Origin: an archaeon
Lineage (GTDB): Archaea > Iainarchaeota > Iainarchaeia > Iainarchaeales > CSSED10-239
DNA: 32,000 nucleotides
Reading direction: 5' to 3'
NCBI GenBank assembly: GCA_041657425.1
Contig: JBBABY010000002.1
Span: forward strand, 90,001-122,000
Made by a program: the position numbers and the translations under genes. This document shows, in pieces, positions 1 to 24,660 of the stretch; the stretch's first letter is position 1, and each line of letters starts with the position of its first letter. The notes beneath the pieces were generated by a model that was not told the DNA's origin, searched no databases, and saw only the letters and a program-made list of their open reading frames with translations.

Positions 1-803
1 GGAAATATAATTGCAATTATAAATAATATATTTTTTATAGAATCTCTGTAAAATGGCATTAAAAAAACACTAAATATTAAAATAAATATTAAAAAAAATA
101 AAAATACATTTATTTCAAATAACAGTGTAATTTTATTTCTTTGGTGTTCTTCCTTTTCTTTCCTTATTTGTTCTGTGGATAATAGATAATCATTTATTAC
201 TACAAAAAGATCTGCTTTTTTATCCAAAACTTCAATTAATTTAGAAAAAAAACTATATTCCTGTTCAGAATAAGTGTTATTACATACGGATTTTAATGTT
301 TCTTTTAAATTCTTATTAAGATCTGCCAATGATAAGATTTTTTTAGATTCTTCAGTTAACAATTTGTTTTTTTCTATTTTTTGAAGTAATAGTAAAACGT
401 CTTTAACTGTTAAACTAGGATCTTGTAATACAGATAAATGTTTAACACTTATTTCTAGCTCGTTCTCTAGCTCTTTTTTATTTGCATTTATTACATAATA
501 TGGATATTTATATAATATCATAAATACAAACCCTGCAAAAGTAAATGATATTATAATGGTTAAAATAAATGTGAAAATTGTAAACAGTATATTTAATTTA
601 AGCATAACAAATATCATCAAGAATTCTAAAATTATTCCAATAATAAATGATATAAATAAAATATTAGAAAGATATGTTTGTACATCTTCTTCTATTTCTG
701 TGAACACAAGAATTTTGGTTAATTCTTTAAATCTAGGTACAATTAACTTAGATAATTCTAAAAAGAAAAAACCAGAAATTTTTGAAAATAATTTGCCAAA
801 CAT
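1..803 (-). CDS. Partial (C-terminus off the left edge) polytopic membrane protein; putative FlaJ/TadC-like (T2SS-F family) pilus/archaellum assembly platform
   Basis: I checked the minus-strand frame triplet by triplet. It is open from the ATG at 803-801 to the window edge, giving 267 codons with no stop in very AT-rich DNA. It is absent from the supplied track, presumably because there is no in-window stop. An in-frame TAA lies just upstream at 812-810, and a GGAG lies about 16-19 nt upstream of the ATG. The translation starts MFGKLFSKISGFFFLELSK. A hydrophobic block (FISFIIGIILEFLMIFVMLKLNILFTIFTFILTIIISFTFAGFVFMILY) is followed by a soluble helical segment of about 110 aa and then more hydrophobic sequence, matching the alternation seen in FlaJ/TadC/GspF proteins. 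The gene starts 30 nt downstream of the FlaI-like gene. The family call rests on architecture and context only. Confidence 0.45.
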   Translation of the reverse strand, partial: MFGKLFSKISGFFFLELSKLIVPRFKELTKILVFTEIEEDVQTYLSNILFISFIIGIILEFLMIFVMLKLNILFTIFTFILTIIISFTFAGFVFMILYKYPYYVINANKKELENELEISVKHLSVLQDPSLTVKDVLLLLQKIEKNKLLTEESKKILSLADLNKNLKETLKSVCNNTYSEQEYSFFSKLIEVLDKKADLFVVINDYLLSTEQIRKEKEEHQRNKITLLFEINVFLFFLIFILIFSVFLMPFYRDSIKNILFIIAIIF

Positions 804-833
804 GTCTTTTTAGTATTCTCCATTTTGCTTACA

Positions 834-3332
834 TTAATTCTTTTCTTCTTGAATATTTAATTTATTAAATAATTGATCTTTATTTAGATAATAATCATTA
901 ACTATGTTATTAAAATCATAACTATCTACAATTTCTGAATCAACTAACCAACGTAATAATCGCTTATATTTATTATAATCTACAATATTAAGACTAGAAG
1001 ACACTAAATTAATATGGAATTCGTCATCTTTATTTAAATAAGTAATTACTTTATGCTCACTATTTCTATATATTTCAGTTATACTTGAAAATTGCATTTG
1101 CTCCAAATTATTTGTATTTATTCTTTCTAAATCAATAACTATTAAATTAACACCAACAGTTTTTGCTTTTTCTAAATAATTTTCTAATATTTGTTTATCC
1201 ATATACATTAAATTAATTTCATACCATTTAATCTCAAATAATTCTTCAGTAAAATTATCTAATATTAAATAATCAGGTCTTTGAGAGATTATTTGAGAAA
1301 TAATTGTTTTTCTATTTTGAACAGAATCATCTAACATTAATCTTTTAATCCAATTTCGTTGTGGCAATTTAATATAATCAAAAGATTGGATACTAGTAAT
1401 TTTCTTATCTGGATAAAATTGGGCGAGAGCAGATAATAAAATGGTACTATCTCCTCCAGTAATTACAACTTGATATTCTTGATTCATTATTGCCCAAATA
1501 TAGGCAAATATATCTGTTGTACCTATCCCTAAATTTATTAAATTTACTGGAGTTAATGGGTCTTCCAAATATTTTTTTATAACAAAAGAAGAACCTTTAT
1601 TACTAGTGTCTCCTACAGAATACAACCCTTCAATCCTATATCCATTTGGTAAATTTCCATTTATTATGGGCTTAGATGAATTTACTTGTAATCCCATAGT
1701 TTTTGTTATTGCCAATACAAACAAATTAAGTTTAGATATATTCTCAAATACTAAATTAGTTTGCAATGCTCCGTATTTAAGATGATATACGGTTAATGGA
1801 ATATTTTCCCCAGAACAACTCACTTCTAATACATTTTTATCCTCAAGAACATTTGCTAAAAAACCAAGCCCAGAAAAATCTTGGTTTATAAAATTTAAAT
1901 ATAGCTTTTTTTCTAAATCTGTTAATGTATAAGTTAATTTATTTATGGTTAAATCAAATATCTTTTGAATATAATTATTTATATTCTGTTTATCCCCCTT
2001 AAAGGATAAATAATTTGAATCAATAGAATCTAAAAACACTTTTTTAATTTCAGAATAAGTTTCTTCTTGAGCAGCGGTTAAATTTGGTTGTATTAAATTA
2101 TAAAACAAGCCTTGTTTCTCTTGATAGCTAATATTTACAAAAGTAAATTCGTTTATATTATATTTTTCAGATATCTGGCTCTTATTTATATCTAATGCAT
2201 TAGGTTTAACTGCATAAATAAGATTTTGAGTTGCGGTGGTTGTAAATTGAGGCATTGTGTTTGCTAAATAAGAATCTGAATCTGATTCAATAAACATTGA
2301 TTTTGCAACAGACCTATTTTCTAATTTTGAATCTGCAGGCAATAAATAATCAAACGTAGTTTTGGCTTTAGCCGCAATCTGTTCTTTCAATTCCTGACCC
2401 TGTGGCAAATTAATTTTTAAATTTTTAGAATTGATATTTATGGCGTTTATTTTCTGTTCAACTTCGGGATTTGGTTTAATTTGCTTATTTTGTATTACAA
2501 AACTGGAATCTACATTCTTTTTCTTTTCTGGACGATTTTCATTACTTGAAAAAGCGTTAGAGATTACTTGCGAAATTTTAGAATCGTCCATAAGAGAAAT
2601 CATTTCAGGAATTTCAATTTCTTCTATTAAAGCAGTAATAGATTTTGATTGTGGATTATTTTTTAAATTGTGAGTAATATATTCTGGCTCAATAATTTTA
2701 GAATTATTTACCTTATTTTCAATAGAATCAATCTTTGCATATAGGTTAGAAACATCCATATTTTTTATTGGAATTTTCTCAACCATCGGCTTATCTCCTA
2801 AAAAACTTATAGATTCTAAAAATGGATTTTCATCATCAACCCTTGTAGTTTCTTTGCGTAAGGACTCTAAAAGAGCATCTACATCAGAAGTATTATTTTC
2901 AACAATCCACTCTAGATTCCCGTCCATCATATTACTATGCCCATTACTTAAATTATTCGAAATAACCTCCAATCTCTTTTTCTCTATTTCAAATTTTAAA
3001 TCATTTTCTACCCTTGCGGTTTGATTTAGTATTTCTTGAGATCTCTGTTCTATTTCTAAATTTTCTTTTATTTTTAATTTGGAAATAATCGCATCTTGTT
3101 TTTGTAGTTTTAAAGTAATTATATTCTTTTCTTGTGATTGTGGGATATTTTCTTTTTTAATAGGGATATTAAGTTTAGGAATTATCTTAGTTACCTTGTG
3201 TTGATAATTAGAAGGTGCCTTTAATTTATCACGACTAGCACTAAATTTAGGAAATATTGTTTTTACTATCCCTTCATTTTTGTTTGGATCGTAAATTATC
3301 TTGATCCGCTCTAATTTTTTTATTTCGACCAT
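834..3332 (-). CDS. FlaI/GspE/VirB11-family secretion 'ATPase' homologue with degenerate nucleotide-binding motifs and a low-complexity N-terminal extension of about 430 aa
   Basis: The C-terminal ~400 aa align by eye to archaeal FlaI. EVSCSGENIPLTVYHLKYGALQTNLVF corresponds to the DISCDG..IPIYV.H.KY....TN block, and LPNGYRIEGLYSVGDTSNKGSSFVIKKY corresponds to LPDGSR......VS.RGSSFTIRKF. At the Walker A position the sequence is VVITGGDSTILLSAL, with no GxxGxGKT and no Lys. The Asp-box position reads SIQSFDYIKLPQRNW instead of SIEDT.E. The Walker B position reads RPDYLILDNFTEE instead of RPD.IIVGE(I/V)RG.E. The N-terminal half is N/K/E/I/S-rich. Confidence 0.75.
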   Translation of the reverse strand: MVEIKKLERIKIIYDPNKNEGIVKTIFPKFSASRDKLKAPSNYQHKVTKIIPKLNIPIKKENIPQSQEKNIITLKLQKQDAIISKLKIKENLEIEQRSQEILNQTARVENDLKFEIEKKRLEVISNNLSNGHSNMMDGNLEWIVENNTSDVDALLESLRKETTRVDDENPFLESISFLGDKPMVEKIPIKNMDVSNLYAKIDSIENKVNNSKIIEPEYITHNLKNNPQSKSITALIEEIEIPEMISLMDDSKISQVISNAFSSNENRPEKKKNVDSSFVIQNKQIKPNPEVEQKINAININSKNLKINLPQGQELKEQIAAKAKTTFDYLLPADSKLENRSVAKSMFIESDSDSYLANTMPQFTTTATQNLIYAVKPNALDINKSQISEKYNINEFTFVNISYQEKQGLFYNLIQPNLTAAQEETYSEIKKVFLDSIDSNYLSFKGDKQNINNYIQKIFDLTINKLTYTLTDLEKKLYLNFINQDFSGLGFLANVLEDKNVLEVSCSGENIPLTVYHLKYGALQTNLVFENISKLNLFVLAITKTMGLQVNSSKPIINGNLPNGYRIEGLYSVGDTSNKGSSFVIKKYLEDPLTPVNLINLGIGTTDIFAYIWAIMNQEYQVVITGGDSTILLSALAQFYPDKKITSIQSFDYIKLPQRNWIKRLMLDDSVQNRKTIISQIISQRPDYLILDNFTEELFEIKWYEINLMYMDKQILENYLEKAKTVGVNLIVIDLERINTNNLEQMQFSSITEIYRNSEHKVITYLNKDDEFHINLVSSSLNIVDYNKYKRLLRWLVDSEIVDSYDFNNIVNDYYLNKDQLFNKLNIQEEKN

Positions 3333-3414: not shown

Positions 3415-4146
3415 TTACACAAAAGAAATCGCAAATGTGCCTAAAAATGAAAGCATATTAAAATAAGTTAAAATTCCAACAATTATATATCCTAATACTA
3501 TTGTTAAAATAAATGGAATTAACGGAGACACCCACACCTTTGTAATTTTATATTTTTCTGAAAATTTCTTTAATTCGTCGATTTGTTTATCCGGAGAACA
3601 ATCTGGTTTGATCATAGTTTTAGAAATTATTTTTCCTTCAATAATTTGAAATTTCTCAAGAGGTGTGTAAAAATAATCTAATTCCTTGATGGCCTTAGGA
3701 AATCCTAAAAACATTAGAATTAAACTCTCTCCAAAACTTTTTTTTGGGAAATTTCCTTTTATTAGATTATAACTAAAAAAAAACATTGGGAGAATAAGCA
3801 TTAAAAACATAGAAACAATAAATACAAATGGGGCAAATAATATTGAAATACCACTAACAAAACTAATCATCATAATTGCAAGAAGGTCTCCTTCTCCAAT
3901 ATATGCATAAACCGTAAATTTTCCAAGAAAATAAATCACAACTAAAAAAATAAAAGTAATTGCAATCTGTAATAAATAAAAATGCAAATAACCATTTATC
4001 CTCCCAAAATATAAAAAAGAAATAAGTCCAATACCTGATAAAATATATATTGGAAGAACATTTATTTCTCTAGTTTTAATATCTTGATATCCTAAATAAA
4101 TTAAACAAGTAATTCCTAAAAAAAATAATGGCAAAAATATATTCAT
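3415..4146 (-). CDS. A24-family aspartic prepilin/preflagellin peptidase (FlaK/PibD-type)
   Basis: This is a polytopic membrane protein carrying the two catalytic Asp motifs of the family: YQDIKTREI near the N-terminus and IGEGDLLAIMMI (GxGD). It is adjacent to the FlaI-like gene. Confidence 0.8.
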   Translation of the reverse strand: MNIFLPLFFLGITCLIYLGYQDIKTREINVLPIYILSGIGLISFLYFGRINGYLHFYLLQIAITFIFLVVIYFLGKFTVYAYIGEGDLLAIMMISFVSGISILFAPFVFIVSMFLMLILPMFFFSYNLIKGNFPKKSFGESLILMFLGFPKAIKELDYFYTPLEKFQIIEGKIISKTMIKPDCSPDKQIDELKKFSEKYKITKVWVSPLIPFILTIVLGYIIVGILTYFNMLSFLGTFAISFV

Positions 4147-4152
4147 AAAAAT

Positions 4153-5130
4153 CTATTTTTTATTTTCTAGTTTTGGTGTAGTTTTTTCTATTTCTTGTTT
4201 TATAGGTTTTACTTTAGAATTAAATGCGGTTTTTGTAAGATAAATAAGATCATCATATGCTTTCCTTTTTGTTATTCTTGCGGTAGATCTTTCAAATAGT
4301 TCATCAGTATATTTCCCTGGTGGCCCAAAAGAAATAATTTTTCTTTTAGTAATCTTATTTAATAGTTCTTGATTTTGATTTTGAGTATTTACCTCTTCTA
4401 CTATGGTTTTTGCTAAATCCAATGTTAGTACGCCACTACCTATTCGGTCCACATAGTCTGTTCCTGAACCAGCAGTTACAAAATTTGCCATTTGTGATAA
4501 CTTAATAGTTGCTGCAAATTTATAAACTAAATCATAACTTTTCTGATCAATTTTTTGATTTAATTTATCAGCTAATTTTGAAATTCCTGCGAAATTAAAT
4601 ACATCATGTTCCTGAATATACCATAAAACATCTCTTAAAGATTTAATAAAGAACGAATCGTACATATAATAAGATAAATAACCAATCATTCCATTATATG
4701 CTTCAACACCTACGTTCTTCTCTTTTATAAAAGTCTCTAGTTTTGATAACCCCATTTTGTAACTTGCAGAATTATTGATTAATCCAAACGGATGAGCTAT
4801 TGAAAATAAATAATTTTTTCTTTCACATAAATCATATATTCTTTTCATAGACACATTTTCTTCAAAGAATACACTATAACTATAAATATCTTCATTTGCA
4901 GCATAGACAAGAACATCTCCCAGGTCTGTTGCTACTGTTAAACCGGGAATTAAAATACTATTCTTAGGTTTTTCTTTTAATAAATCAAAATATGCTTTTT
5001 TAGGATTATTACTAGCATATTCAGTTATTGCTGTTCCAAGTAAATTATTTTTATTAACATATTGCCAATATCTTTTACTTGATTGCTTTCTTTTCAAGAA
5101 GTGAGTGTTTAAATCTAAATTGTATTGCAT
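4153..5130 (-). CDS. Hypothetical protein, weakly PHP-domain-like (metal-dependent phosphoesterase fold) with substituted metal ligands
   Basis: The order of motifs resembles a PHP domain: LDLNTHF (vs DLHxHT), PGLTVATDLGDVLVYA (vs GxE....HiLgY), SIAHPFG (AHP motif), GVEAYNG, and TAGSGTDY (vs GSDAH). Recognition is by eye only, and several His positions are replaced. The gene lies 6-7 nt from both flanking genes. Confidence 0.3.
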   Translation of the reverse strand: MQYNLDLNTHFLKRKQSSKRYWQYVNKNNLLGTAITEYASNNPKKAYFDLLKEKPKNSILIPGLTVATDLGDVLVYAANEDIYSYSVFFEENVSMKRIYDLCERKNYLFSIAHPFGLINNSASYKMGLSKLETFIKEKNVGVEAYNGMIGYLSYYMYDSFFIKSLRDVLWYIQEHDVFNFAGISKLADKLNQKIDQKSYDLVYKFAATIKLSQMANFVTAGSGTDYVDRIGSGVLTLDLAKTIVEEVNTQNQNQELLNKITKRKIISFGPPGKYTDELFERSTARITKRKAYDDLIYLTKTAFNSKVKPIKQEIEKTTPKLENKK

Positions 5131-8754: not shown

Positions 8755-10184
8755 CTTCCTCCCATTTTTTGAAACATCATTCCTATTAATCCAAATATTG
8801 GAATAATTTCTAATCTTCCAACCCACATATTTATTATTAATACAATTTTTGGAATTAATGACATACTATGCTCTGCAATTCCTATTGGAACGCCTATATT
8901 TCCTTGTGTTGAAACAACTTCAAATATGCTTGTACTTAATGGATAGTTATAAGCTGTTAATATTAGTACTCCAAAAATTATAAAAAACACATAGCTTGCA
9001 ATAAAAAAATATAATAATCTAATTTCTGTATTTTCAATTATTCTTCCATTAAACTTTTTAGAAATATTTGAAAGATCTGGTAATCTTATTTCTCTTATTT
9101 GCCAAATTACAGATTTAATCAATAATAAAAATCTTTCTTGAGTAATCCCACCAGCGGTTGATCCTTTTGCGCCACCAATAAACATTATAAATATCAATAA
9201 AAAGAAAAGTAATGGCGCTAGCCCTGCAATCATTAAAGGAGTAAACGTAGTAAATCCGCCACCCATTGCCCCAATAATTAAACCAATTATACTTTGCCAA
9301 GTTTGTGTGCCTGATAAATAAATATAGAATATAACAAATAAGACTAATGCCATTAAAAACATAGAAATAACTTGCATATCTTTAAAATAAACAAATAGAT
9401 TCTTTTCTTTATACACCTTATAATGAGTAATAAATGAAATTGCTCCTAAAAAGATAATAAACGATACTGCTAATTGAATATTACTTTGATAAATATAATC
9501 GTTATTTGGCATGTCGTGGCCAGTTGTTGAAATTGCAGACATCGTATAAGTTACAGAATTTAATAAATCCATTCCAACAAGCAATAATAAAACTATCCCA
9601 ATTACTGTTAAAATTGTATATATTATCCAAAGATCCTTAATTGTATCCTTATAACTTACGTCCATTTGATCATGGCCTTCTGCTCTTGCGATTTTTTTAG
9701 AGGTAAATAACCCTGTATTTAACAAACCATAAAATGCAATTAAAACAATCCCTATTCCTCCAATCCAGGAAAGCAATGCTTTCCAAATATGCCAACTTAC
9801 TGTAGATACAATATACGGCAGAGTTGTTGTTCCTGTAGTTGTAAGAAGAGACATGGCATCAAAGAAAGAATCTATGAAATTATATCCAAAAACATAGTAT
9901 GGAAGAGTTGCGGCCGCACAAAAGATAATCCACACTCCGCAAATAATTAAAAGATAATGAACTCCACTTAATTCTACAAAATCATTTTTAGGAATAAATT
10001 TATATAGAATTAATCCAAATAGAAAAACTATAATAAAAGAAATCCCGTAGCTTAGTGTAAAAGCAAAAGGTTCTTTAAAAATTAAAGAAAATAATATTGG
10101 GATTAGAAATATGAAACTACTATAATAGATTATTTGACCAATGTACTTTAGAATCAAATTAAAATACCATCTTGTGTAATACAT
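8751..10184 (-). CDS. trkH: TrkH/KtrB-family K+ (cation) transporter membrane subunit
   Basis: The protein is polytopic with four repeated selectivity-filter-like motifs: TTGTTT, STTGH, GGAKGSTAGGI and STQGNIG. Confidence 0.85.
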   Translation of the reverse strand: MYYTRWYFNLILKYIGQIIYYSSFIFLIPILFSLIFKEPFAFTLSYGISFIIVFLFGLILYKFIPKNDFVELSGVHYLLIICGVWIIFCAAATLPYYVFGYNFIDSFFDAMSLLTTTGTTTLPYIVSTVSWHIWKALLSWIGGIGIVLIAFYGLLNTGLFTSKKIARAEGHDQMDVSYKDTIKDLWIIYTILTVIGIVLLLLVGMDLLNSVTYTMSAISTTGHDMPNNDYIYQSNIQLAVSFIIFLGAISFITHYKVYKEKNLFVYFKDMQVISMFLMALVLFVIFYIYLSGTQTWQSIIGLIIGAMGGGFTTFTPLMIAGLAPLLFFLLIFIMFIGGAKGSTAGGITQERFLLLIKSVIWQIREIRLPDLSNISKKFNGRIIENTEIRLLYFFIASYVFFIIFGVLILTAYNYPLSTSIFEVVSTQGNIGVPIGIAEHSMSLIPKIVLIINMWVGRLEIIPIFGLIGMMFQKMGGR

Positions 10185-10258
10185 TTTTTTTCCTTTTGAT
10201 TATAATAATATAGTAATAGTAAACTAAAATATATTTAAATGTATTTAATTTTATTAGT

Positions 10259-10747
10259 TTAAATTTCTATTTTTAAAAATTGAACTAATAACATTACAAT
10301 GCAAATAAAAAAGAAAGAAAAATAATAAAGCCAGGATTTTTTTGTCTTATATAAATAATAGAAAACTGCAACTCCAAAGATTAAACCAAGTAGATAAACT
10401 ATTGCTGGAGTTTGATAAAAAAATATTCCAATAGTAACAAAAATTGTGGCTAAAGGAACTACCAGATATGTTGCTTTCCAGAAATCTGGTAATTTTGATT
10501 TGTGTAAAATCAACCAAGAAATGAAAAAAATAAATATTAAAAATAACTGGCGCATTATCCCTGGAATTATTGTATAGGGAGAATTCTCATTCAATTGTAT
10601 AAATAATCCAAACAGTCTACTTAATAATCCTTGAAAAACCGCAGCTAATAGGAAGGTCAAAATTAAAAGAACATAACCAATAACAATAATTCCAATACCA
10701 GATAGTATCTTTTCTATAATCGGATTTTTGATTAATTTTGAGCTCAT
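10259..10747 (-). CDS. Small polytopic membrane protein, function unknown
   Basis: There are four to five hydrophobic helices and I recognise no motif. I moved the start to the internal Met (MSSKLIKNP...), because the first 25 codons of the track ORF run through the tRNA-like fragment. Confidence 0.45.
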   Translation of the reverse strand: MSSKLIKNPIIEKILSGIGIIVIGYVLLILTFLLAAVFQGLLSRLFGLFIQLNENSPYTIIPGIMRQLFLIFIFFISWLILHKSKLPDFWKATYLVVPLATIFVTIGIFFYQTPAIVYLLGLIFGVAVFYYLYKTKKSWLYYFSFFFICIVMLLVQFLKIEI

Positions 10748-10775
10748 TATTTTCTCGTTTTTAAAATATTTTACG

Positions 10776-10805
10776 CCGGTCAGGTGAGATTCGAACCCAC
10801 AAACC
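10776..10805 (-). pseudogene. Orphan tRNA 3'-half-like fragment (variable region, T-arm, 3' acceptor strand); no 5' half present
   Basis: The minus strand reads GGTTT GTGGG TTCGAAT CTCAC CTGACCG G. This is a canonical T-stem/T-loop followed by a 7-nt acceptor strand and a discriminator base. The upstream sequence is AT-rich with no D-arm or anticodon arm and no complementary CGGTCAG. The fragment matches the equivalent part of the nearby tRNA-Arg at 21 of 25 positions. Confidence 0.55.
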
Positions 10806-10940
10806 ACATTATATTTAAACAAGTAATAAAAATATATATAAATTGTTCTATTTCTATTTTTATTAATTAAATTATAAAGAGGAGAGAATATATATATATA
10901 TCGAGCAAAATTGCAATTACAAAAATTTAGACAAAATGGA

Positions 10941-11084
10941 ATGACTGAATCAAAAAAAATATATAATGCTAATAAAAATGCAAATAGTGTTAGTTTTGAA
11001 GAATATGTAACCAGACTAAAATCAGATATTGAAAGATTAACCCTTGAAAATCAGATTCTAAACAGATATATAAATAAAAAGTAA
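10941..11084 (+). CDS. Possible 47-aa ORF (MTESKKIYNANKNANSVSFEEYVTRLKSDIERLTLENQILNRYINKK), helical/coiled-coil-like
   Basis: This is the only open frame in the 290-bp spacer between the tRNA fragment and tRNA-Arg. It has no convincing RBS or TATA box and is below the track threshold. It could be fortuitous. Confidence 0.15.
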   Translation: MTESKKIYNANKNANSVSFEEYVTRLKSDIERLTLENQILNRYINKK

Positions 11085-11098
11085 ATTTGCTTTTAACA

Positions 11099-11173
11099 CA
11101 GGCCGGGTGGGATTCGAACCCACGATCCCAAGCTTAGGAGGCTTGTGCACTATCCAAACTATGCTACCGACCT
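11099..11173 (-). tRNA. tRNA-Arg (anticodon CCU), 75 nt, CCA not encoded
   Basis: I folded the minus-strand sequence by hand: AGGTCGG TA GCAT AGTTTGGATA GTGC A CAAGC CTCCTAA GCTTG GGATC GTGGG TTCGAAT CCCAC CCGGCCT G. The acceptor stem has 7 bp (one G-U), the D-stem 4 bp, the anticodon stem 5 bp and the T-stem 5 bp. The anticodon loop CU-CCU-AA gives the anticodon CCU. Confidence 0.85.
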
Positions 11174-11290
11174 TTTTTTATAATTTTAAAAAATAAGAAA
11201 CATTTTTAAATACTAAGTTTTTCTATATATAATATAATATATTTATTAGAGCAGTTTAAAAATATAAGTTTTAATCAAATAGTAGTAATT

Positions 11291-11860
11291 ATGAGTAAAA
11301 AAATATTGATAATGGTTGGCCCAGCGGGAAGCGGAAAAGGCACACAAAATCAATTGATTGAAAAAGAATTTGGATATAAGCCGTTTTCTATGGGTGACCT
11401 ATTAAGAGAAGAAGTAAGTAAGAAAACAATCCTTGGTAAAAAGATTAATAATATTATAAAGAACGGAAATCTTGTTACTCTTGAAATGGCAAGCGATTTA
11501 ATATTTAATAGAATAAAAAAAGAAAAATCTAGAAAAATATTAATGGATGGATTTCCAAGAGAATATGATCAGGCTGCAGTTTTTGATTACTTTTTACATT
11601 CTAATCAATTCAAATTTATGGGTGCGATACATATTAAACTTTCAAAAAAAGAGAGTATCAAAAGGCTATTATTAAGAAAACGACATGATGATGAAACTAA
11701 AGCAATTAACCAAAGACTAAATGATTATCATAATCTCACATCAAAAGTCATTGAAAGATATAAAGAAAAAGGAAAACTTATAGAAATTAATGGAGAACAA
11801 TCTATTGATGGAGTATTTAAAGAAATAAAAACAAAATTAAAAAAGATTAAAGGGATTTAA
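11291..11860 (+). CDS. adk: Adenylate kinase (short-LID type)
   Basis: It has the P-loop GPAGSGKGTQ, then MGDLLREE (NMP-binding region), DGFPRE, and a short LID (RKRHDDE) without a Cys4 zinc motif. Confidence 0.85.
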   Translation: MSKKILIMVGPAGSGKGTQNQLIEKEFGYKPFSMGDLLREEVSKKTILGKKINNIIKNGNLVTLEMASDLIFNRIKKEKSRKILMDGFPREYDQAAVFDYFLHSNQFKFMGAIHIKLSKKESIKRLLLRKRHDDETKAINQRLNDYHNLTSKVIERYKEKGKLIEINGEQSIDGVFKEIKTKLKKIKGI

Positions 11861-11865
11861 AAAAT

Positions 11866-13434
11866 ATGATTCCAGACCCTAGAATTATAGAAAATATACA
11901 AAAATTAAAAGATTTAGGAATGTCTAAAGATGACATTAAAAGTAACCTTATAAAGATGGGACTATCTTCATCTGATTGTGATGAATTAATAATCAATGCT
12001 TTTAATGGAACTGTAGAAAAGAAAGAAGAAATAATTATCCCAAAACCAACTATTGCAAAAGAATCAAATATTGCCAACTCAGTATCAAAAGAAGAAAAAA
12101 TAGATACTACTGAATTACCAGATAATTTATTTGATGATGATACCGATATTGGAACATTAAAAGATGAAAATCAAATTTTAGATATTAAAGACACATCAAA
12201 AGAAATCCCTGATATCACTAAAGGCCTTGGAGTTGATGAACTTAATTATTCTGAATCAGATTATAAATCTACAATTGAAGAATCTAAACCATTTTATAAT
12301 CTCAATAATAAAGCTCAAACTAATTCTAAAAATATAACTACAACTCCTACAAACTCAGATATCTGGGGTTCTGGTTTAGCAACTACTATCAACTCAAAAC
12401 TAAATGAAATTGATTTAAAACAAGCAAAGATGGAAGAATTCTTAAAACTCAGAATTGCTGAAGAAATTGAAAAATATAAGAGAATACAAGAAACTTCTAA
12501 GCAACTACTTACAACAAAAATAAATGAAGATGTTACCACTCAAACACACGAAATTAATACCCAATTAACTAGACAACTTGCTCAACTTAAAGTTGAACAA
12601 ATTAAAATTAATAAAAAAACCGAAGAAATCACTAATGGAAAAAAAGAAATTGAAGAACTAACTAAACATATGCAGTCATTTCAAACGCAATTAGTAGATC
12701 AAAATACAGTTTCACAAGAAAATGTAAATAAAATTATTGCAACAACTACTGTAAAGCTAAATGCCAAAATAAAAGAAATAAATGATATACTTGCACTTCA
12801 ATCAAGAATTACTCAAGGATTAATAAAAAATACTCAAACTGCAATTGGTGGAGAGATTACTAAGTTAAATGAATTTAAAGAAAATATTGATAAAAAAATT
12901 AATCCTCAACAATTGTATGATAAATTAAATCAATTAGAGCTATTTAAGCAACAACTTGCAAACAGATATGAAACAAGATTTGAAAATGTAAAAACAGAAT
13001 TTTTAGTTAAAGCAAGAGAGGCATTTAAAGATGAAATTAATAAAGATCTAAAAGATATAAAAACAGTTAGAGATACAATTGTTGCAAAAAGCGATCCTGA
13101 ATTAATTAATAAAAAGATAGAAGAATTAAATACTTTCCAAACACACCTTCTTTCTGCAATTGATGAAAAGATTTCTCAATCTCTTAAAGTCTATGAATCT
13201 GTAATCACTCAAGAAATAAAAGGAAAATCAAATGCAATTGATGAAGAAATTAAAAAAATAGAGAATGCAATGATTACTTTAGATTTAGCAAAAGAAAAAG
13301 TAACTGAACTTAATATGTTTAAAGATCAGTTTATTGCAATTATTGATAAAAATATAGAAAAAATAAATACAACCTTTTCTTTACTAGAAAATAAAATAAA
13401 AGAAATGGAAGAAAATCAAAAGAAACTAATGTAA
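11866..13434 (+). CDS. Long coiled-coil protein with a small N-terminal helical domain, function unknown
   Basis: The gene starts 5 nt after the adk stop. The N-terminal ~45 aa (IENIQKLKDLGMSKDDIKSNLIKMGLSSSDCDELI) are followed by an acidic/Thr-rich linker and then about 350 aa of heptad-like K/E/Q/I/L-rich sequence. I see no enzymatic motif. Confidence 0.55.
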   Translation: MIPDPRIIENIQKLKDLGMSKDDIKSNLIKMGLSSSDCDELIINAFNGTVEKKEEIIIPKPTIAKESNIANSVSKEEKIDTTELPDNLFDDDTDIGTLKDENQILDIKDTSKEIPDITKGLGVDELNYSESDYKSTIEESKPFYNLNNKAQTNSKNITTTPTNSDIWGSGLATTINSKLNEIDLKQAKMEEFLKLRIAEEIEKYKRIQETSKQLLTTKINEDVTTQTHEINTQLTRQLAQLKVEQIKINKKTEEITNGKKEIEELTKHMQSFQTQLVDQNTVSQENVNKIIATTTVKLNAKIKEINDILALQSRITQGLIKNTQTAIGGEITKLNEFKENIDKKINPQQLYDKLNQLELFKQQLANRYETRFENVKTEFLVKAREAFKDEINKDLKDIKTVRDTIVAKSDPELINKKIEELNTFQTHLLSAIDEKISQSLKVYESVITQEIKGKSNAIDEEIKKIENAMITLDLAKEKVTELNMFKDQFIAIIDKNIEKINTTFSLLENKIKEMEENQKKLM

Positions 13435-13440
13435 CCATTT

Positions 13441-15327
13441 CTATATTTTTTTAACTTTAATCACACCAGTTGCATATAGTATTATTGTTAATAAACACAA
13501 CACAATTATTCCTGCAAAAATTGAATTTCTAAGAGTTAAAAATCCTGTTAACTTTGTTTTTTCTATTGTTCCTTGTTGTGTTGCATCTTGGAACTTAAGA
13601 AGAACGGGTTTTTCTAAGACTCCACCGTTACTTGAAATAAATCTTAATTTTGCGTTGATTGATTCTTTAGGGATGTTACCAATATTTAATCTTCCGGTTA
13701 TGGTCTTTGTTTGTCCAGGATTTAGTGCAATATCCCTTTCAACAATCAAAACAACTTCTTGAGGAACACTTGTAAGTTCTATCTTACTTAGTACTAATGT
13801 ACTTGTTCCTGTGTTTCTTAAAGTTATTTCAAAATTCTTTGTAGTGTTCTGATCAATTGTTATTTCTGTAGGATATGACATTAATTCTAAATTAATAATT
13901 GCCATATTTCTAACAACTGTAATATTGTAGAATTGCTCATTATAAAAACCACTATCTCTTCCTCTAATTTTAATATATGTTCTTGAAAGACCAAGTGCGG
14001 TATCTTCTCCTGCTGACACGAAGACAGTTACTAGAGCTGATGAATGTGGACTAACATATACTGTATTGATTGGAGTTCTTGTTCTTAAATCATTATTGCT
14101 TTCAGTTGTGATTGTAAATTCGTCTCCTATGTCTCCTGTGTTCTTGATAAGAAGTATAAGTTCTAAGTTTTGTCCAATAACTAAATAAGGATCATTTCCG
14201 GTTAAACTTTGAACTGTAAAACCAAAATTCGGATTCACTAATAATTTTACTTTTTTTGTAATACTATGTATTCCATCAAAGAAATTAAGATTAATATCAT
14301 AAGTTCCTGAACTTATTTCTTTTGTTGTTTTAAATGTAAAGTCTACTGGTTTTGATTCTCCAGGGCCTAATGTTAATTGTAATTTTGAAATATTAATATC
14401 AATGTCAAGACTTACATGTTCTTCAGAAATATACATTGTCTTTGTATTTCTTGAATTATTTTTTATTGTGTATGTTACTGTTTTTTCTTGTTCTTTATTT
14501 ACATTATAAGTTATAGTTGCTGGACCACTTACTGTAAAATCAATATCTGTATCTGGACAATCTGTAGCATAAAGAGTTATTTCCTTTACTACTTTTATTT
14601 CCTCATTTTCAATTCTCATTTGTAAATCAAAAGTATCTCCTTGTTCTACATTTTCTGGAACGACTATATAATAATCTATTTCCTTATTATCTCTAAAATA
14701 AACTGGATTTGAATATTCTGAATTTATTTGTAATCTTGAATTACTTAAATATAAATAGAACAAACCATCTTGATAATCATTCTCTATTTCCATTGTTATT
14801 TTATTATTTCTACCAATACATAAACTATAATCATAAACATCAACTTGGAAATCTCCATCTTCTTCATCTTGATTTACTTCAATATCTGTTGTAAATTCAT
14901 TTATTTCTTGAGTATCTGAGTTTAATAGTTTAATATATACTGACAACGTTGAATTAGACTGATCAATTCCAGTTAAATATAAAGAACCAGTTTGTGTTGA
15001 ATTTCCAGACATTGTATAATTGTTTGAATAATTACAGGAAATCTCATTATCTCCGTCTTCACAATCAGCCCAAACAAGTATTCTTACAGTTTCTGGATTA
15101 TTGTTTTCAATTGTAAATCCGATTCTTATACTTGTATCTTCCATTAGAGAATAGGTTTCTTTTTCAAAAGTTAAATCGATATTATCTACATTTGCTTCTG
15201 CAAAGACAGTTCTTGTTGCAAATATAGAAATTAAAATTATAAATATCCCAATAAACAAATACTTTAGTTTACTGTTTATTTCGTTTGCTTTTGTTTTATT
15301 TTCAAAATCAATTATTTTTGTTTGCAT
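13441..15327 (-). CDS. Large secreted protein with repeated beta-sandwich (CARDB / COG1361 S-layer-like) segments and a C-terminal transmembrane anchor
   Basis: There is an N-terminal signal/anchor (LKYLFIGIFIILISIFATRTVFA-EA). Segments of the type 'TIKNNS..', 'LIKNTGDIGDEF', 'ITLRNTGTSTLVLSKIEL', 'LNPGQTKTITG' and 'LGPGESKPVDFTF' recur. The C-terminus has a hydrophobic helix plus a basic tail (IFAGIIVLCLLTIILYATGVIKVKKI). Confidence 0.6.
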   Translation of the reverse strand: MQTKIIDFENKTKANEINSKLKYLFIGIFIILISIFATRTVFAEANVDNIDLTFEKETYSLMEDTSIRIGFTIENNNPETVRILVWADCEDGDNEISCNYSNNYTMSGNSTQTGSLYLTGIDQSNSTLSVYIKLLNSDTQEINEFTTDIEVNQDEEDGDFQVDVYDYSLCIGRNNKITMEIENDYQDGLFYLYLSNSRLQINSEYSNPVYFRDNKEIDYYIVVPENVEQGDTFDLQMRIENEEIKVVKEITLYATDCPDTDIDFTVSGPATITYNVNKEQEKTVTYTIKNNSRNTKTMYISEEHVSLDIDINISKLQLTLGPGESKPVDFTFKTTKEISSGTYDINLNFFDGIHSITKKVKLLVNPNFGFTVQSLTGNDPYLVIGQNLELILLIKNTGDIGDEFTITTESNNDLRTRTPINTVYVSPHSSALVTVFVSAGEDTALGLSRTYIKIRGRDSGFYNEQFYNITVVRNMAIINLELMSYPTEITIDQNTTKNFEITLRNTGTSTLVLSKIELTSVPQEVVLIVERDIALNPGQTKTITGRLNIGNIPKESINAKLRFISSNGGVLEKPVLLKFQDATQQGTIEKTKLTGFLTLRNSIFAGIIVLCLLTIILYATGVIKVKKI

Positions 15328-15342: not shown

Positions 15343-16185
15343 TTACTTTCTATAAACATATCTTATATATCTTGTTGAAAAAGATAATACTAAAATTATT
15401 AAAATAAATATTAAAATTATTTGAAATACTGTTGAATCTAAAGTAGTTAACACATCTATATTACCTAATGAGAATAGTCCTGTAAATACTGAAAATGGTT
15501 CATTTGGTTTTATTACATCTTTTTTTGGCAAGTCAATTGTAATATTACTATATATTCCATTACATCTGTAATCTAATTTTGTTTGATTAATGTCTGTTTT
15601 AAATAATCTAACTAATGAACTTTCTGTTGCTTTTATTGTTGAAATTTTACCAATTGGAACTTCTAAGTTAATGTCTCTTAAATCAAGAACATCTATGTTT
15701 TGATTTATATTACTATTATTTTTAAATATTAATTCTAGTTTGTAATTATCTGATTCTTTTACATAACTTATGAAATACTGTAAATCTACTTGGCACACTC
15801 TATTTGTTTTTTGAAGAATTGTAAAAGTAATTTTATTATAGTAGTCTATAGAAGTTACTTCTATGCTTGAACTGTAAGTTGATTCTAGTTGATTTTCTAA
15901 AGGAGTTATTGTTAATGGAACTAGTTTTGAAGTATTTGGTTGTAATCTTATTGTTGTTTCTGAGAAATAAGATGGATAAGGTGCAGTATATGACTTTAAT
16001 GTATAAGTTTGGACTGTACTTGTGGGGTTATAGATATAAAAATCCACAGAAATTTGTTTATCGACAAGAGTTACATTACTTGGAAAAGATGTTGTTGCAT
16101 TCCCAGCATAAACTACTTGTAAAGATATTAATGCAATTATTAATAGTAAAAATATTTTTTTAAACATAGAATTCACTCTCTGCAA
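15343..16185 (-). CDS. Secreted protein with a C-terminal transmembrane anchor, function unknown
   Basis: It has a Sec-type signal (MFKKIFLLLIIALISLQVVYA-GN), so the true start may be Met7 at 16167. The body is beta-rich and S/T/N-rich. The C-terminus has a TM helix plus a basic tail (FQIILIFILIILVLSFSTRYIRYVYRK). The gene lies 15 nt upstream of the 628-aa surface-protein gene. Confidence 0.55.
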   Translation of the reverse strand: MQRVNSMFKKIFLLLIIALISLQVVYAGNATTSFPSNVTLVDKQISVDFYIYNPTSTVQTYTLKSYTAPYPSYFSETTIRLQPNTSKLVPLTITPLENQLESTYSSSIEVTSIDYYNKITFTILQKTNRVCQVDLQYFISYVKESDNYKLELIFKNNSNINQNIDVLDLRDINLEVPIGKISTIKATESSLVRLFKTDINQTKLDYRCNGIYSNITIDLPKKDVIKPNEPFSVFTGLFSLGNIDVLTTLDSTVFQIILIFILIILVLSFSTRYIRYVYRK

Positions 16186-24612: not shown

Positions 24613-24660
24613 TTACTCTAATTGAGTTCTACCATAGAATCCTTTTGGGAAGTAGATCAG
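24613..24660 (-). pseudogene. Orphan duplicate of the last 15 codons plus the stop of the livM-type permease gene
   Basis: The minus strand reads CTG ATC TAC TTC CCA AAA GGA TTC TAT GGT AGA ACT CAA TTA GAG TAA, which translates to LIYFPKGFYGRTQLE*. This is identical in protein sequence to the C-terminus of the intact gene ending at 25965. There is no upstream ORF, and the RelA/SpoT-domain gene's stop codon overlaps the fragment's first codons. Confidence 0.8.
24626..24657. repeat. Left copy of the exact 32-bp direct repeat gttctaccatagaatccttttgggaagtagat
   Basis: I compared it base by base with 25978-26009 and the two are identical. Confidence 0.95.

What the first reader, a model, noticed from the sequence alone, without database searches (positions are those of the whole stretch)
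834..3332. FlaI/GspE-family protein with every ATPase motif degenerated and a ~430-aa low-complexity N-terminal extension
- **Homology.** The C-terminal half is clearly homologous to archaeal FlaI-type secretion ATPases. The SCxG..IP..V.H.KY and LP.G.R...GSSF.I(K/R)K(Y/F) blocks are intact.
- **Lost motifs.** The P-loop is VVITGGDSTILLSAL (1413-1469), with no GKT. The Asp box has lost its acidic residues (SIQSFDY). The Walker B / catalytic Glu region reads RPDYLILDNFTEE (1242-1280) instead of ..GE(I/V)RG.E. I cannot find a His box.
- **Context.** The gene is nevertheless long, uninterrupted, and embedded between an A24 prepilin peptidase gene and a FlaJ-like membrane protein gene. That argues for a retained non-catalytic role, such as a scaffold, a regulator, or a partner of an active paralogue, rather than a decaying pseudogene.
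- **N-terminus.** The N/K/E/S-rich N-terminal half does not resemble the canonical FlaI N-terminal domain.
Basis: partly seen in the sequence, partly recalled or inferred. Interest (0 to 1): 0.65.

Follow-up and report, generated by a model that had tools for sequence, protein, structure and literature searches.

The report
Conserved dead pilus-motor ATPase paralogue
This gene encodes a full-length, well-folded relative of the ATPase motors that build archaeal pili, but it has lost all four ATP-handling motifs; it is nevertheless strictly conserved across the DPANN phylum Iainarchaeota inside a pilus-assembly operon, so a "motor" protein is being kept for a job that does not involve burning ATP.

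Summary
ORF 834-3332 (-) encodes an 832-aa protein. Residues ~376-825 are homologous to archaeal GspE/FlaI secretion ATPases: phmmer E=4e-40 to 2OAP, and Foldseek E=9e-31 over the whole 2OAP chain.

Three independent alignments agree on the motif losses:
- **Walker A:** the Gly-Lys dipeptide is deleted.
- **Asp box:** E-D-x-x-E has become Q-S-x-D-Y.
- **Walker B:** G-E has become D-N.
- **His box:** the first half of the loop (consensus A-T-G-H-P) is deleted and the second His is replaced.

This is not decay. About 35 orthologues (37-64% identity) in Iainarchaeota share the same lesions. 39 distinct genomic copies have intact ORFs. Core dN/dS is 0.04-0.14. The former pocket carries new invariant residues (Q649, D652, D692, F694, W703).

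The operon is near-universal: unknown 325-aa gene, A24 prepilin peptidase, pseudo-ATPase, two split PilC/FlaJ-like genes, DUF192. An active ferredoxin-fused T2SSE ATPase with its own platform genes lies on the same contig in three related genomes. I could not check this for the window's own genome.

The extension is ~370 aa, not ~430. It is disordered but carries conserved short motifs.

I read it as a non-catalytic ring or scaffold subunit of a type IV filament machine. I found no published description. Pfam T2SSE misses all 23 members tested.

The parts
834..3332 (-). Gene for the 832-aa pseudo-ATPase (AfGspE/PilB-type secretion-ATPase paralogue without ATPase motifs); stop codon at 834-836
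   Evidence: ORF. PDB homology. AF2 plus Foldseek. 23+ orthologues.
2226..3332 (-). N-terminal extension, residues 1-369. Mostly predicted disordered and K/I/N/E/S-rich. Islands of conserved motifs: MVEIKKL (3312-3332), IEKKRLEVIS helix (2958-2987), a ~57-aa module VDALLESL...NLYAKIDSIENK (2712-2882), LIEEIEIPEM (2601-2630), FDYLLPAD (2331-2354).
   Evidence: pLDDT <50 for most of 1-367. No Pfam hit. Motifs conserved across 22 orthologues. dN/dS 0.19-0.43 in the two closest pairs.
1548..2225 (-). Canonical GspE/FlaI-type N-terminal domain, residues 370-595. Includes the SCSGENIPLTVYHLKY and LPNGYRIEG...GSSFVIKKY blocks and the PLTP linker. This is the best-conserved part of the protein.
   Evidence: Aligned to AfGspE 28-235 and FlaI 20-230. 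Mean column conservation 0.70-0.88. pLDDT 82-92.
837..1547 (-). RecA-like C-terminal (ex-ATPase) domain plus C-terminal helical subdomain, residues 596-832
   Evidence: Alignments. Foldseek covers the whole 2OAP chain.
1425..1469 (-). Walker A remnant VVITGGDSTILLSAL (residues 622-636). The Gly-Lys of GxxxxGK[ST] is deleted.
1374..1394 (-). Asp-box remnant SIQSFDY (residues 647-653). Canonical sequence is SIEDTxE. Q649 and D652 are invariant in the family.
1242..1280 (-). Walker B remnant RPDYLILDNFTEE (residues 685-697). Canonical sequence is RPDYIIVGEVRGxEA. Gly is replaced by Asp in 33/34 members. The catalytic-Glu position is free to vary (E/N/D/T/S).
1197..1217 (-). Site of the deleted His box, INLMYMD (residues 706-712). 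The five residues A-T-G-H-P that open the canonical His-box loop are missing, and the second His is replaced (D712 here; D/T/N across the family).
   Evidence: hhalign shows a 9-column gap against the Fer4-T2SSE profile. The MAFFT column profile with the nearest canonical relatives shows five all-gap columns in 34/34 members.
846..965 (-). PilB3_C-like C-terminal helical domain (residues 790-829; LRWLVDSEIVDSYDFNNIVNDYY)
   Evidence: Pfam PF23989 hit is weak in the window protein (E=0.24) but present in 21/23 family members, best 5.7e-6. It aligns with the C-terminus of canonical relatives.
3415..4146 (-). A24 prepilin/preflagellin peptidase, 82 nt upstream in the same orientation. Both catalytic-Asp contexts are readable in the sequence (YQDIK, GEGD).
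   Evidence: Pfam Peptidase_A24 plus Arc_PepC_II. NCBIfam FlaK E=5e-12, below cut-off. Upstream neighbour in 31/32 loci.
4153..5130 (-). Conserved 325-aa protein of unknown function, first gene of the conserved block
   Evidence: No Pfam, NCBIfam or PDB hit. Present in 27/29 loci. dN/dS 0.04-0.14.
1..803 (-). 5' part of T2SSF_a, the first of two split PilC/TadC/FlaJ-like platform genes. It starts 30 nt after the pseudo-ATPase stop. The rest of this gene, T2SSF_b (380 aa) and DUF192 lie beyond the window edge.
   Evidence: Translation. Full operon on L001, from the same organism. Pfam T2SSF weak; NCBIfam ArlJ/FlaJ E=1.6e-12. Downstream neighbour in 34/36 loci.

Best explanation
**Shown.** The gene encodes a structurally intact but catalytically dead paralogue of the archaeal AfGspE/PilB-type type IV filament ATPase. 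One ancestral remodelling removed the P-loop Gly-Lys, the Asp-box acids, the Walker B Gly-Glu and the His box. The protein has since been kept under strong purifying selection across Iainarchaeota. It is the 'ATPase' gene of a conserved operon: unknown 325-aa gene, A24 prepilin peptidase, pseudo-ATPase, split platform T2SSF_a and T2SSF_b, DUF192.

**Inferred.**
- It still adopts the two-domain fold and probably the ring-forming packing of its ancestors. It probably docks on the cytoplasmic face of its cognate T2SSF_a/b platform, acting as a static, non-enzymatic ring or scaffold.
- Its ~370-aa disordered N-terminal arm, studded with conserved short motifs, recruits other factors.
- Any mechanical energy for pilin extraction or assembly comes in trans from the motif-intact ferredoxin-fused T2SSE ATPase, which these genomes encode with a second platform pair.
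- The former nucleotide pocket is now lined by invariant Q649, D652, D692, F694, W703 and Y704. It is either filled to lock one conformation or used as a new interface or ligand site.
For: **Homology and fold.**

**Loss of all four motifs in every member.**

**A discrete family.** About 16 full-length 50%-identity clusters score at or above 742 bits. The next proteins score at or below 239 bits and, apart from the degenerate singleton P0163, all have GGTASGKT and RQRPDYIIVGE.

**Purifying selection.**
- Core dN/dS is 0.041 (L018/L019, dS 0.18), 0.099 (L007/L010), and 0.07-0.14 in further pairs.
- This equals the constraint on T2SSF_a/b (0.06-0.18) and is tighter than on the peptidase (0.11-0.25).

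**Remodelling rather than drift.** New invariant residues sit at ex-motif positions, while the catalytic-Glu position varies freely.

**Synteny in 39 distinct loci**.
- A24 upstream in 31/32, T2SSF_a downstream in 34/36, T2SSF_b in 30/32, DUF192 in 30/30.
- Gaps are short or the genes overlap.

**Active paralogue.** A Fer4-T2SSE gene with intact GNTGSGKTT is present in related genomes.
- It lies 2.5 kb downstream in L011.
- It lies ~18 kb away on the same contig JAQVTI010000004.
- It lies on the same 41.5-kb contig as P0022.

**Conserved N-terminal motifs.**
Against: - No biochemical data. Absence of ATP binding or hydrolysis is inferred from sequence only.
- Ring formation and platform docking were not tested. 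No multimer prediction tool was available.
- FlaI is reported to need ATP to hexamerise (from memory). A nucleotide-free protein may therefore not form rings at all.
- In one lineage (P0010; L002-4, L007, L035-36) T2SSF_a/b are deleted, yet the pseudo-ATPase is retained with core dN/dS 0.10. Its function therefore cannot depend wholly on that platform pair.
- The active Fer4-T2SSE is only distantly related (18% identity) and has its own platform genes. Direct cooperation is not shown.
- It is adjacent in only 1 of 39 loci.
- I could not verify that the window's own genome encodes it.
- No pilin genes were found in the window with a simple class-III signal-peptide scan.
Confidence: 0.6

Rival explanations
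1. It is a regulator or partner of the active Fer4-T2SSE motor. It either mixes into or stacks on that ATPase's ring, or it competes with it for platform proteins. On this view it tunes or gates filament assembly rather than serving as the structural subunit of its own machine.
For: - The two co-occur on the same contig in three genomes and are directly adjacent in L011.
- The P0010 lineage keeps the pseudo-ATPase after losing T2SSF_a/b.
- The inter-domain and linker region is the best-conserved part of the protein, as expected if subunit packing is preserved.
Against: - The two proteins belong to different subfamilies: 18% identity by hhalign, and phmmer E=7e-10. That makes mixed rings unlikely.
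- The pseudo-ATPase is almost always encoded with its own dedicated platform pair (34/36 loci) and is far from the Fer4 cluster (38/39 loci).
Confidence: 0.2
2. It has been repurposed away from filament mechanics. The remodelled acidic and aromatic pocket binds a new ligand or protein segment, and the protein acts as a sensor or adaptor. One possibility is that it controls or positions the co-encoded prepilin peptidase, its most constant neighbour.
For: - New invariant residues occupy the old active site.
- The A24 peptidase is upstream in 31/32 loci, and the pair persists when the platform genes are lost.
- The long motif-bearing disordered arm is typical of adaptor proteins.
Against: - No ligand or interaction evidence of any kind.
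- The tight pairing with T2SSF_a/b in nearly all genomes argues for a classical ATPase-platform relationship.
- P0010, the lineage without platform genes, shows 5 unique changes at otherwise invariant columns against 0-1 in its sisters. That hints at partly relaxed constraint once the platform is gone.
Confidence: 0.12
3. It is still an NTPase that uses a non-canonical or shifted set of catalytic residues.
For: - Some P-loop-fold proteins tolerate deviant Walker A motifs (general knowledge).
- Several acidic residues are conserved around the old site: D628, D652, D692.
Against: - The Gly-Lys of the P-loop is physically deleted, and so is the first half of the His-box loop.
- No G-K-[ST] occurs anywhere in 33/34 members.
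- The catalytic-Glu position is not conserved.
- The conserved Arg positions of canonical relatives (GSR, IRK) are mostly Lys here.
Confidence: 0.05
4. It is a decaying pseudogene or an assembly artefact.
For: - All catalytic motifs are lost.
- Pfam does not recognise the protein.
Against: - 39 distinct intact copies come from independent assemblies and environments.
- dN/dS is 0.04-0.14.
- There are 91 invariant columns across 23 sequences.
- The only split ORF is an NN scaffold gap.
Confidence: 0.01

Closest known systems
Archaeoglobus fulgidus GspE (PDB 2OAP/2OAQ) and the archaeal PilB-type type IV pilus ATPases with a PilB3-like C-terminal domain (PF23989)
   Same: - Best sequence match (E=4e-40; family profile 2.4e-49) and best fold match (E=9e-31, whole chain).
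- Same N-domain plus RecA-like C-domain plus C-terminal helical subdomain.
- Shares the RPDY stretch before Walker B and the CxG..P..VYH.KYG and LP.G...GSSF.I+K blocks.
- Encoded next to T2SSF platform genes.
   Different: - Walker A Gly-Lys deleted. Asp-box and Walker B acids replaced. His box lost: the A-T-G-H-P stretch is deleted and the second His is replaced.
- ~370-aa disordered N-terminal extension.
- The platform is split into two genes.
- Not detected by Pfam T2SSE (0/23 members).
FlaI/ArlI archaellum motor ATPase (PDB 4II7/4IHQ)
   Same: Homologous over residues 376-695 (E=1e-23). Same fold (Foldseek E=1e-28).
   Different: - A weaker match than AfGspE.
- The NCBIfam FlaI equivalog scores 120.6 bits against a cut-off of 550.
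- No archaellin, FlaF/G/H or other archaellum genes in the window or the conserved operon.
- No ATPase motifs.
Ferredoxin-fused (2x4Fe-4S) T2SSE ATPase of Iainarchaeota and other DPANN (e.g. L011 10080-11870; P0029-P0148)
   Same: - Same superfamily (hhalign probability 99.4%).
- Same genomes.
- Also followed by two small T2SSF genes.
   Different: - All motifs intact: GNTGSGKTT, EE..E, RMRPDRVVIGE, TFHA.
- N-terminal Fer4 domains instead of a disordered arm.
- Only 18% identical.
- Sits in a different conserved neighbourhood: PCC, PRPP synthase, then the ATPase, T2SSF_c/d and VTT.
Non-catalytic or weakly catalytic ATPase-fold partners in type IV filament machines: ArlH/FlaH (KaiC/RecA-like), and GspL/PilM (actin-like fold). 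From general knowledge, not tested here.
   Same: Concept only. These are ATPase-fold proteins retained as structural or regulatory parts of the cytoplasmic machinery.
   Different: They have different folds and a different evolutionary origin. None is a dead copy of the motor ATPase itself occupying the motor's own place in the operon.

Membership tests
T2SSE / GspE-PilB-FlaI secretion ATPase superfamily (PF00437) | Two-domain fold: N-terminal domain plus RecA-like C-terminal domain | tested here: met
   AF2 pLDDT is 80-95 for residues 370-825. Foldseek matches 2OAP at E=9e-31 and TMt 0.69 over 501 columns, FlaI at 1e-28 and CpaF at 1e-18.
T2SSE / GspE-PilB-FlaI secretion ATPase superfamily (PF00437) | Walker A P-loop GxxxxGK[ST] | tested here: not met
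   The G-K dipeptide is deleted in all 34 members covering the region. No GK[ST] occurs in the window protein.
T2SSE / GspE-PilB-FlaI secretion ATPase superfamily (PF00437) | Asp box (acidic residues, SIEDTxE) | tested here: not met
   Reads SIQSFDY. E is replaced by Q in 34/34 members, D by S/A/T, and the last E by Y/R/N.
T2SSE / GspE-PilB-FlaI secretion ATPase superfamily (PF00437) | Walker B with catalytic Glu (hhhhGE) | tested here: not met
   Reads LILDN. G is replaced by D in 33/34 members. The Glu position is variable: E11, N10, D3, T3, S2.
T2SSE / GspE-PilB-FlaI secretion ATPase superfamily (PF00437) | His box (TGH....T.HA) | tested here: not met
   The A-T-G-H-P stretch is deleted in 34/34 members and the second His is replaced by D/T/N. 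hhalign shows a 9-column gap at this site.
T2SSE / GspE-PilB-FlaI secretion ATPase superfamily (PF00437) | Pfam gathering threshold | tested here: not met
   No PF00437 hit for the window protein, even at E<=10 on the C-terminal half. 0 of 23 family members hit at E<=1.
T2SSE / GspE-PilB-FlaI secretion ATPase superfamily (PF00437) | Encoded next to a T2SSF (PilC/TadC/FlaJ) platform gene | tested here: met
   T2SSF_a starts 30 nt downstream. Present in 34/36 loci.
FlaI/ArlI archaellum motor (NCBIfam NF058587 equivalog) | Score above the equivalog cut-off, and an archaellum operon context (archaellins, FlaF/G/H/J) | tested here: not met
   120.6 bits against a cut-off of 550. No archaellum genes in the window or in the syntenic loci.
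Archaeal PilB3-like pilus ATPases (C-terminal domain PF23989) | PilB3_C C-terminal helical domain | tested here: inconclusive
   The window protein scores E=0.24, 12 bits, against a cut-off of 27. 21/23 family members match weakly, best 5.7e-6. P0023 has a precomputed PF23989 hit. The region aligns with the C-termini of canonical relatives.
Pseudogene | Frameshifts or stops in orthologues, or dN/dS near 1 | tested here: not met
   The ORF is intact in 39 distinct copies. Core dN/dS is 0.04-0.14.
Pseudoenzyme (conserved, catalytically inactive homologue of an enzyme) | Loss of catalytic residues together with purifying selection and a retained fold; experimental absence of activity | tested here: inconclusive
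   The sequence and evolutionary criteria are met. Absence of ATP binding or hydrolysis cannot be tested with these tools.

The most novel reading that the evidence does not exclude
Iainarchaeota run a type IV filament module whose dedicated 'motor' position has been held by a dead ATPase since before the sampled lineages diverged. This could be a motor-less or trans-powered machine. The locked ring on a split platform, with its long motif-bearing arm, might make a static anchor or attachment structure. Alternatively, it might couple pilin processing by the co-encoded peptidase to a second, redox-sensing (ferredoxin-fused) motor. The remodelled acidic and aromatic pocket would then bind a new ligand or partner segment instead of ATP.
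Probability: 0.2. Interest if true: 0.8.

Novelty: new variant of a known kind. Interest (0 to 1): 0.62.

Why it matters
To my knowledge, every described type IV filament machine (pili, archaella, T2SS, Tad, Com) is built around a hexameric T2SSE ATPase that turns ATP hydrolysis into movement of the platform protein. Here a whole DPANN phylum keeps a full peptidase-'ATPase'-platform operon in which the ATPase cannot be an ATPase. It keeps that protein as tightly constrained as the platform itself.

If the protein is a static ring or adaptor, it offers a natural separation of the structural role of the motor from its catalytic role. That separation is hard to obtain by mutagenesis. It also bears on how ultra-small, possibly host-dependent archaea build surface structures with minimal gene sets.

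On the practical side, the family is invisible to Pfam T2SSE and is annotated 'hypothetical protein' in NCBI records. Censuses of pilus systems in DPANN archaea therefore mis-score these loci as lacking an ATPase.

Tried and rejected
- **Pfam on the whole protein and on each half**. No T2SSE hit. Homology had to be shown with phmmer against PDB, NCBIfam, hhalign and fold search.
- **Second word-indexed homologue search with the 230-aa core**. It returned only 5 fragments and no canonical paralogues, so that search was wasted.
- **Looking for the active paralogue in the window's own genome.**
  - The window has none.
  - The only other retrievable contig from the organism is 10.9 kb.
  - Look-ups of candidate Fer4-T2SSE proteins P0062 and P0073 led to other samples.
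  - This remains untested.
- **Pilin genes.** A simple class-III signal-peptide scan of the window found only false positives, namely transporter TM segments.
- **The 325-aa upstream gene.**
  - No hit in Pfam, NCBIfam or PDB, by sequence or by profile.
  - Single-sequence AF2 gave pLDDT 34, which is unusable.
- **Literature**.
  - I found no description of a motif-less T2SSE paralogue in archaea.
  - The full-text finds in Makarova et al. 2016 (PMC4858521) returned no 'inactiv*', 'catalytic', 'ferredoxin' or 'DPANN', and 'Walker' only as an author name in a reference.
  - Probst & Banfield 2018 (PMC5905446) mention only a repeat-containing 'secretion-related ATPase'.
- **Pseudogene, artefact and shifted-P-loop readings.** Rejected.
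- **Relaxed selection in the platform-less P0010 lineage.** There is only a weak signal: 5 unique changes at invariant columns, with dN/dS still 0.10. This is not conclusive.


Full report
**1. What is in the sequence**

The window has ~27% G+C. ORF 834..3332 on the minus strand encodes 832 aa. It lies 82 nt downstream of an A24 prepilin peptidase gene at 3415-4146 (Pfam Peptidase_A24 plus Arc_PepC_II). It lies 30 nt upstream of a T2SSF/FlaJ-like membrane protein gene that starts at nt 803 and runs off the window. Two ORFs on the plus strand, 2431-2673 and 556-813, lie inside these genes. They are mechanical by-products of the A+T-rich sequence.

**2. Homology**

Pfam gives no hit, even for the C-terminal half at E<=10. 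Other methods show clear homology:
- phmmer against PDB sequences gives A. fulgidus GspE (2OAP) at E=4e-40 over query 385-692. FlaI (4II7) scores 1.3e-23 over 376-695. CpaF scores 6e-6.
- NCBIfam's FlaI equivalog scores 120.6 bits, far below its cut-off of 550.
- An AlphaFold2 model built on 23 orthologues is confident for residues 370-825 (pLDDT 80-95). It is below 50 for most of 1-367.
- Foldseek matches the whole 2OAP chain (E=9e-31, TM 0.69 normalised to the target, 501 columns). FlaI follows at 1e-28 and CpaF at 1e-18.

The protein is therefore a complete GspE/FlaI-type two-domain unit: N-domain ~376-595, PLTP linker, RecA-like C-domain, and C-terminal helical subdomain. This unit is preceded by a ~370-aa extension.

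**3. The motifs**

Three alignments agree: phmmer pairwise, hhalign of the family profile against a profile of motif-intact ferredoxin-fused T2SSE ATPases, and MAFFT with the nearest canonical relatives.

| Motif | Canonical relatives | This family |
|---|---|---|
| Walker A | G-G-T-A-[ST]-G-K-T-[ST] | T-G-(D)-[DG]-D-[SAN]-(gap gap)-x; the G-K dipeptide is absent in 34/34 |
| Asp box | S-I-E-D-T-x-E | S-I-Q-S-[YF]-D-[YRN] |
| Walker B | R-P-D-Y-I-I-V-G-E-V-R-G-x-E-A | R-P-D-Y-[IL]-I-L-D-x-F-T-x-D-L-F |
| His box | A-T-G-H-P...T-x-H-A | A-T-G-H-P deleted in 34/34; second His replaced by D/T/N |

- In Walker B, G is replaced by D in 33/34 members. The catalytic-Glu position varies freely: E11, N10, D3, T3, S2.
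- At the His box, hhalign against the Fer4-T2SSE profile shows a 9-column gap.
- No G-K-[ST] tripeptide exists anywhere in 33 of 34 family proteins.
- The conserved Arg positions of canonical relatives (LPDGSR, IRK) are mostly Lys.
The start of the P-loop remnant is 12 nt off; the true span is 1425-1469.

**4. A frozen remodelling, not decay**

*Family size and boundary*
- A word-indexed search found 23 orthologues. All are full length apart from one 523-aa partial sequence (P0016), at 37-64% identity.
- An exhaustive HMMER search of 1.84 billion representatives found about 16 full-length 50%-identity clusters at 742 bits or more. There is then a gap.
- Below the gap come proteins at 239 bits or less. 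With one exception, all carry GGTASGKT and RQRPDYIIVGE.
- All family members share the same two deletions. This indicates a single ancestral event.

*Conservation*
- 91 columns are invariant across the 23 sequences.
- The ex-active site holds new invariant residues: Q649 34/34, D652 33/34, D692 33/34, F694 34/34, W703 34/34, Y704 32/34.

*Selection*

| Pair | Core dN/dS (NG86) | Note |
|---|---|---|
| L018/L019 | 0.041 | dS 0.18, unsaturated |
| L007/L010 | 0.099 | |
| L009/L010 | 0.072 | |
| L014/L018 | 0.142 | |

For comparison, T2SSF_a/b give 0.06-0.18, the peptidase 0.11-0.25, and the 325-aa gene 0.04-0.14.

*Intact copies*
- In 51 loci from GTDB genomes and JGI/ENA metagenomes, representing 39 distinct sequences, the ORF is intact.
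- The one split ORF (L059) is caused by an NN scaffold gap.

**5. Taxonomy**

Named hits are Candidatus Iainarchaeum, 'Ca. ainarchaeum sp.', Ca. Diapherotrites, and the complete genome of Ca. Forterrea multitransposorum (CP045477.1). All belong to phylum Iainarchaeota, DPANN/Nanobdellati.

**6. Genomic context**

The block is [325-aa unknown] - A24 peptidase - pseudo-ATPase - T2SSF_a (280 aa) - T2SSF_b (380 aa) - DUF192. It is almost universal:

| Neighbour | Loci with it / loci with enough flank |
|---|---|
| A24 upstream | 31/32 |
| 325-aa gene | 27/29 |
| T2SSF_a | 34/36 |
| T2SSF_b | 30/32 |
| DUF192 | 30/30 |

- The single A24 miss (L019) does have the gene, just outside my distance cut-off.
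- The full block from the window's own organism is visible on L001.
- The only exceptions to T2SSF_a/b are the two sequences of the P0010 lineage (L002-4, L007, L035, L036). There both platform genes are cleanly absent, while the peptidase, pseudo-ATPase and DUF192 remain.
- That lineage has 5 unique substitutions at otherwise invariant core columns, against 0-1 in its sisters. Its dN/dS is still 0.10. This gives at most a hint of relaxation.

**7. An active paralogue**

- The 32-kb window contains no other T2SSE homologue.
- In L011 a 596-aa protein lies 2.5 kb downstream of the pseudo-ATPase. It has two N-terminal 4Fe-4S ferredoxin domains and an intact T2SSE domain (GNTGSGKTT; Pfam T2SSE E=1.7e-34). 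Its own T2SSF gene and a further 271-aa ORF with no Pfam hit follow.
- Orthologues of this Fer4-T2SSE lie on the same contig as the pseudo-ATPase in two more genomes. One is JAQVTI010000004, about 18 kb apart. The other is the 41.5-kb contig carrying P0022 and P0058.
- The Fer4-T2SSE, T2SSF_c/d and VTT cluster is itself conserved.
- It is only 18% identical to the pseudo-ATPase. The pseudo-ATPase therefore derives from an AfGspE/PilB3-like ancestor, not from a recent duplication of the Fer4 gene. In support, 21/23 members weakly match Pfam PilB3_C.
- I could not determine whether the window's own genome carries the Fer4-T2SSE.

**8. The N-terminal extension**

- Residues 1-369 are K/I/N/E/S-rich and mostly predicted disordered. 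They have no Pfam match.
- They evolve faster than the core: dN/dS is 0.19-0.43 in the two closest pairs.
- Length varies between orthologues (total protein 788-1209 aa).
- In Forterrea the extension contains a 45-bp x 5.7 tandem repeat. This is probably the repeat region in a 'secretion-related ATPase' mentioned by Probst & Banfield 2018 (PMC5905446).
- Short motifs are conserved across nearly the whole family:
  - MVELKKL at the very N-terminus;
  - an IEKKxLEVIS helix;
  - a ~57-aa module, VDxLLxxL...PFLExISFLDDxPKIxKI...VSNLYAKIDxIExK;
  - LIEEIEIPEI..DDT;
  - FDYILPKD.
- This pattern fits an interaction arm with short linear motifs. It does not fit meaningless low complexity.

**9. Interpretation**

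*Shown.* This is a conserved pseudoenzyme derived from a type IV filament ATPase. It occupies the ATPase slot of a peptidase-ATPase-platform operon.

*Inferred, most likely.* It is a non-catalytic ring or scaffold on its cognate split platform. Its disordered arm recruits partners, and energy comes in trans from the Fer4-T2SSE.

*Rivals.*
- A regulator or competitor of the active motor.
- An adaptor or sensor repurposed around the peptidase and using the remodelled pocket.
- Residual non-canonical NTPase activity (unlikely).
- A pseudogene (refuted).

**10. Known or new**

- I found no description of such a protein in the searchable literature.
- NCBI records call the members 'hypothetical protein'. 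One JGI record calls one 'VirB11'.
- Dead paralogues of ring ATPases are a familiar theme in other systems. To my knowledge, a dead copy of the T4F motor that is retained phylum-wide in the motor's own operon position has not been reported.
- I rate it a new variant of a known kind, of moderately high interest.

**11. Side observation**

Two unrelated singletons in the exhaustive search also have degraded motifs. P0163 (824 aa) and P0275 (514 aa) both fall outside this family. Loss of catalysis in T2SSE homologues may therefore have happened more than once.

Noticed in passing
window 4153-5130 (-): A 325-aa protein with no Pfam, NCBIfam or PDB match. It is conserved immediately upstream of the peptidase in 27/29 loci, under strong constraint (dN/dS 0.04-0.14). 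The orthologue consensus begins MLYNLDLHTHL, an HxH motif that recalls PHP phosphoesterases (from memory only). The window copy reads DLNTHF. It may be an unrecognised component of the same operon.
   Followed up: partly
L002-L004, L007, L035, L036 (orthologous loci of protein P0010): One lineage has cleanly lost both platform genes T2SSF_a/b but keeps the peptidase, pseudo-ATPase and DUF192. Its pseudo-ATPase has 5 unique changes at otherwise invariant columns (sisters have 0-1). Its dN/dS is still 0.10.
   Followed up: partly
L011 10080-13475; L023, L025, L026, L032 around 10001-14700: A conserved second cluster in Iainarchaeota: a T2SSE ATPase fused to two N-terminal 4Fe-4S ferredoxin domains, followed by two small T2SSF genes and a VTT/DedA protein. 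PCC and PRPP-synthase genes usually precede it. A redox-cofactor domain on a pilus motor is interesting in itself.
   Followed up: partly
proteins P0163 (824 aa) and P0275 (514 aa) from the exhaustive search: Two T2SSE homologues outside this family also have degraded motifs. P0163 has no GK[ST] and reads VLDY in place of VGE. P0275 reads SGKH and ILDR. These are independent cases of motif loss. Their genomic context could not be looked up.
   Followed up: no
L018 9442-9699 (Ca. Forterrea multitransposorum CP045477.1): A 45-bp x 5.7 tandem repeat (15-aa repeats) lies inside the N-terminal extension of the Forterrea orthologue. It probably corresponds to the repeat region in a 'secretion-related ATPase' that caused scaffolding errors in Probst & Banfield 2018 (Fig. 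1F legend). The window gene has no tandem repeat.
   Followed up: partly
beyond window position 1; L001 7218-7568: A DUF192 (COG1430) gene closes the operon in 30/30 loci. It is not a recognised type IV pilus component.
   Followed up: no
window 24657-25724 (-): A 355-aa protein with a RelA/SpoT nucleotidyl-transferase domain (Pfam E=1.9e-20). This is a possible small alarmone synthetase in a DPANN archaeon.
   Followed up: no
window 13441-15327 (-), 11866-13434 (+), 15343-16185 (-): Large proteins with only weak Ig-like or Fn3-like hits, or with no hits. They may be surface proteins. No class-III (pilin-type) signal peptide was detected in the window by a simple scan.
   Followed up: partly
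window 556-813 (+) and 2431-2673 (+): 85-aa and 80-aa ORFs lie antisense to the T2SSF_a and pseudo-ATPase genes. They are I/F/S/N-rich and look like by-products of the A+T-rich sequence, not genes.
   Followed up: no
L059 ~740: The apparent frameshift in one orthologue is an NN scaffold gap in a 3-kb metagenome contig, not a mutation.
   Followed up: yes
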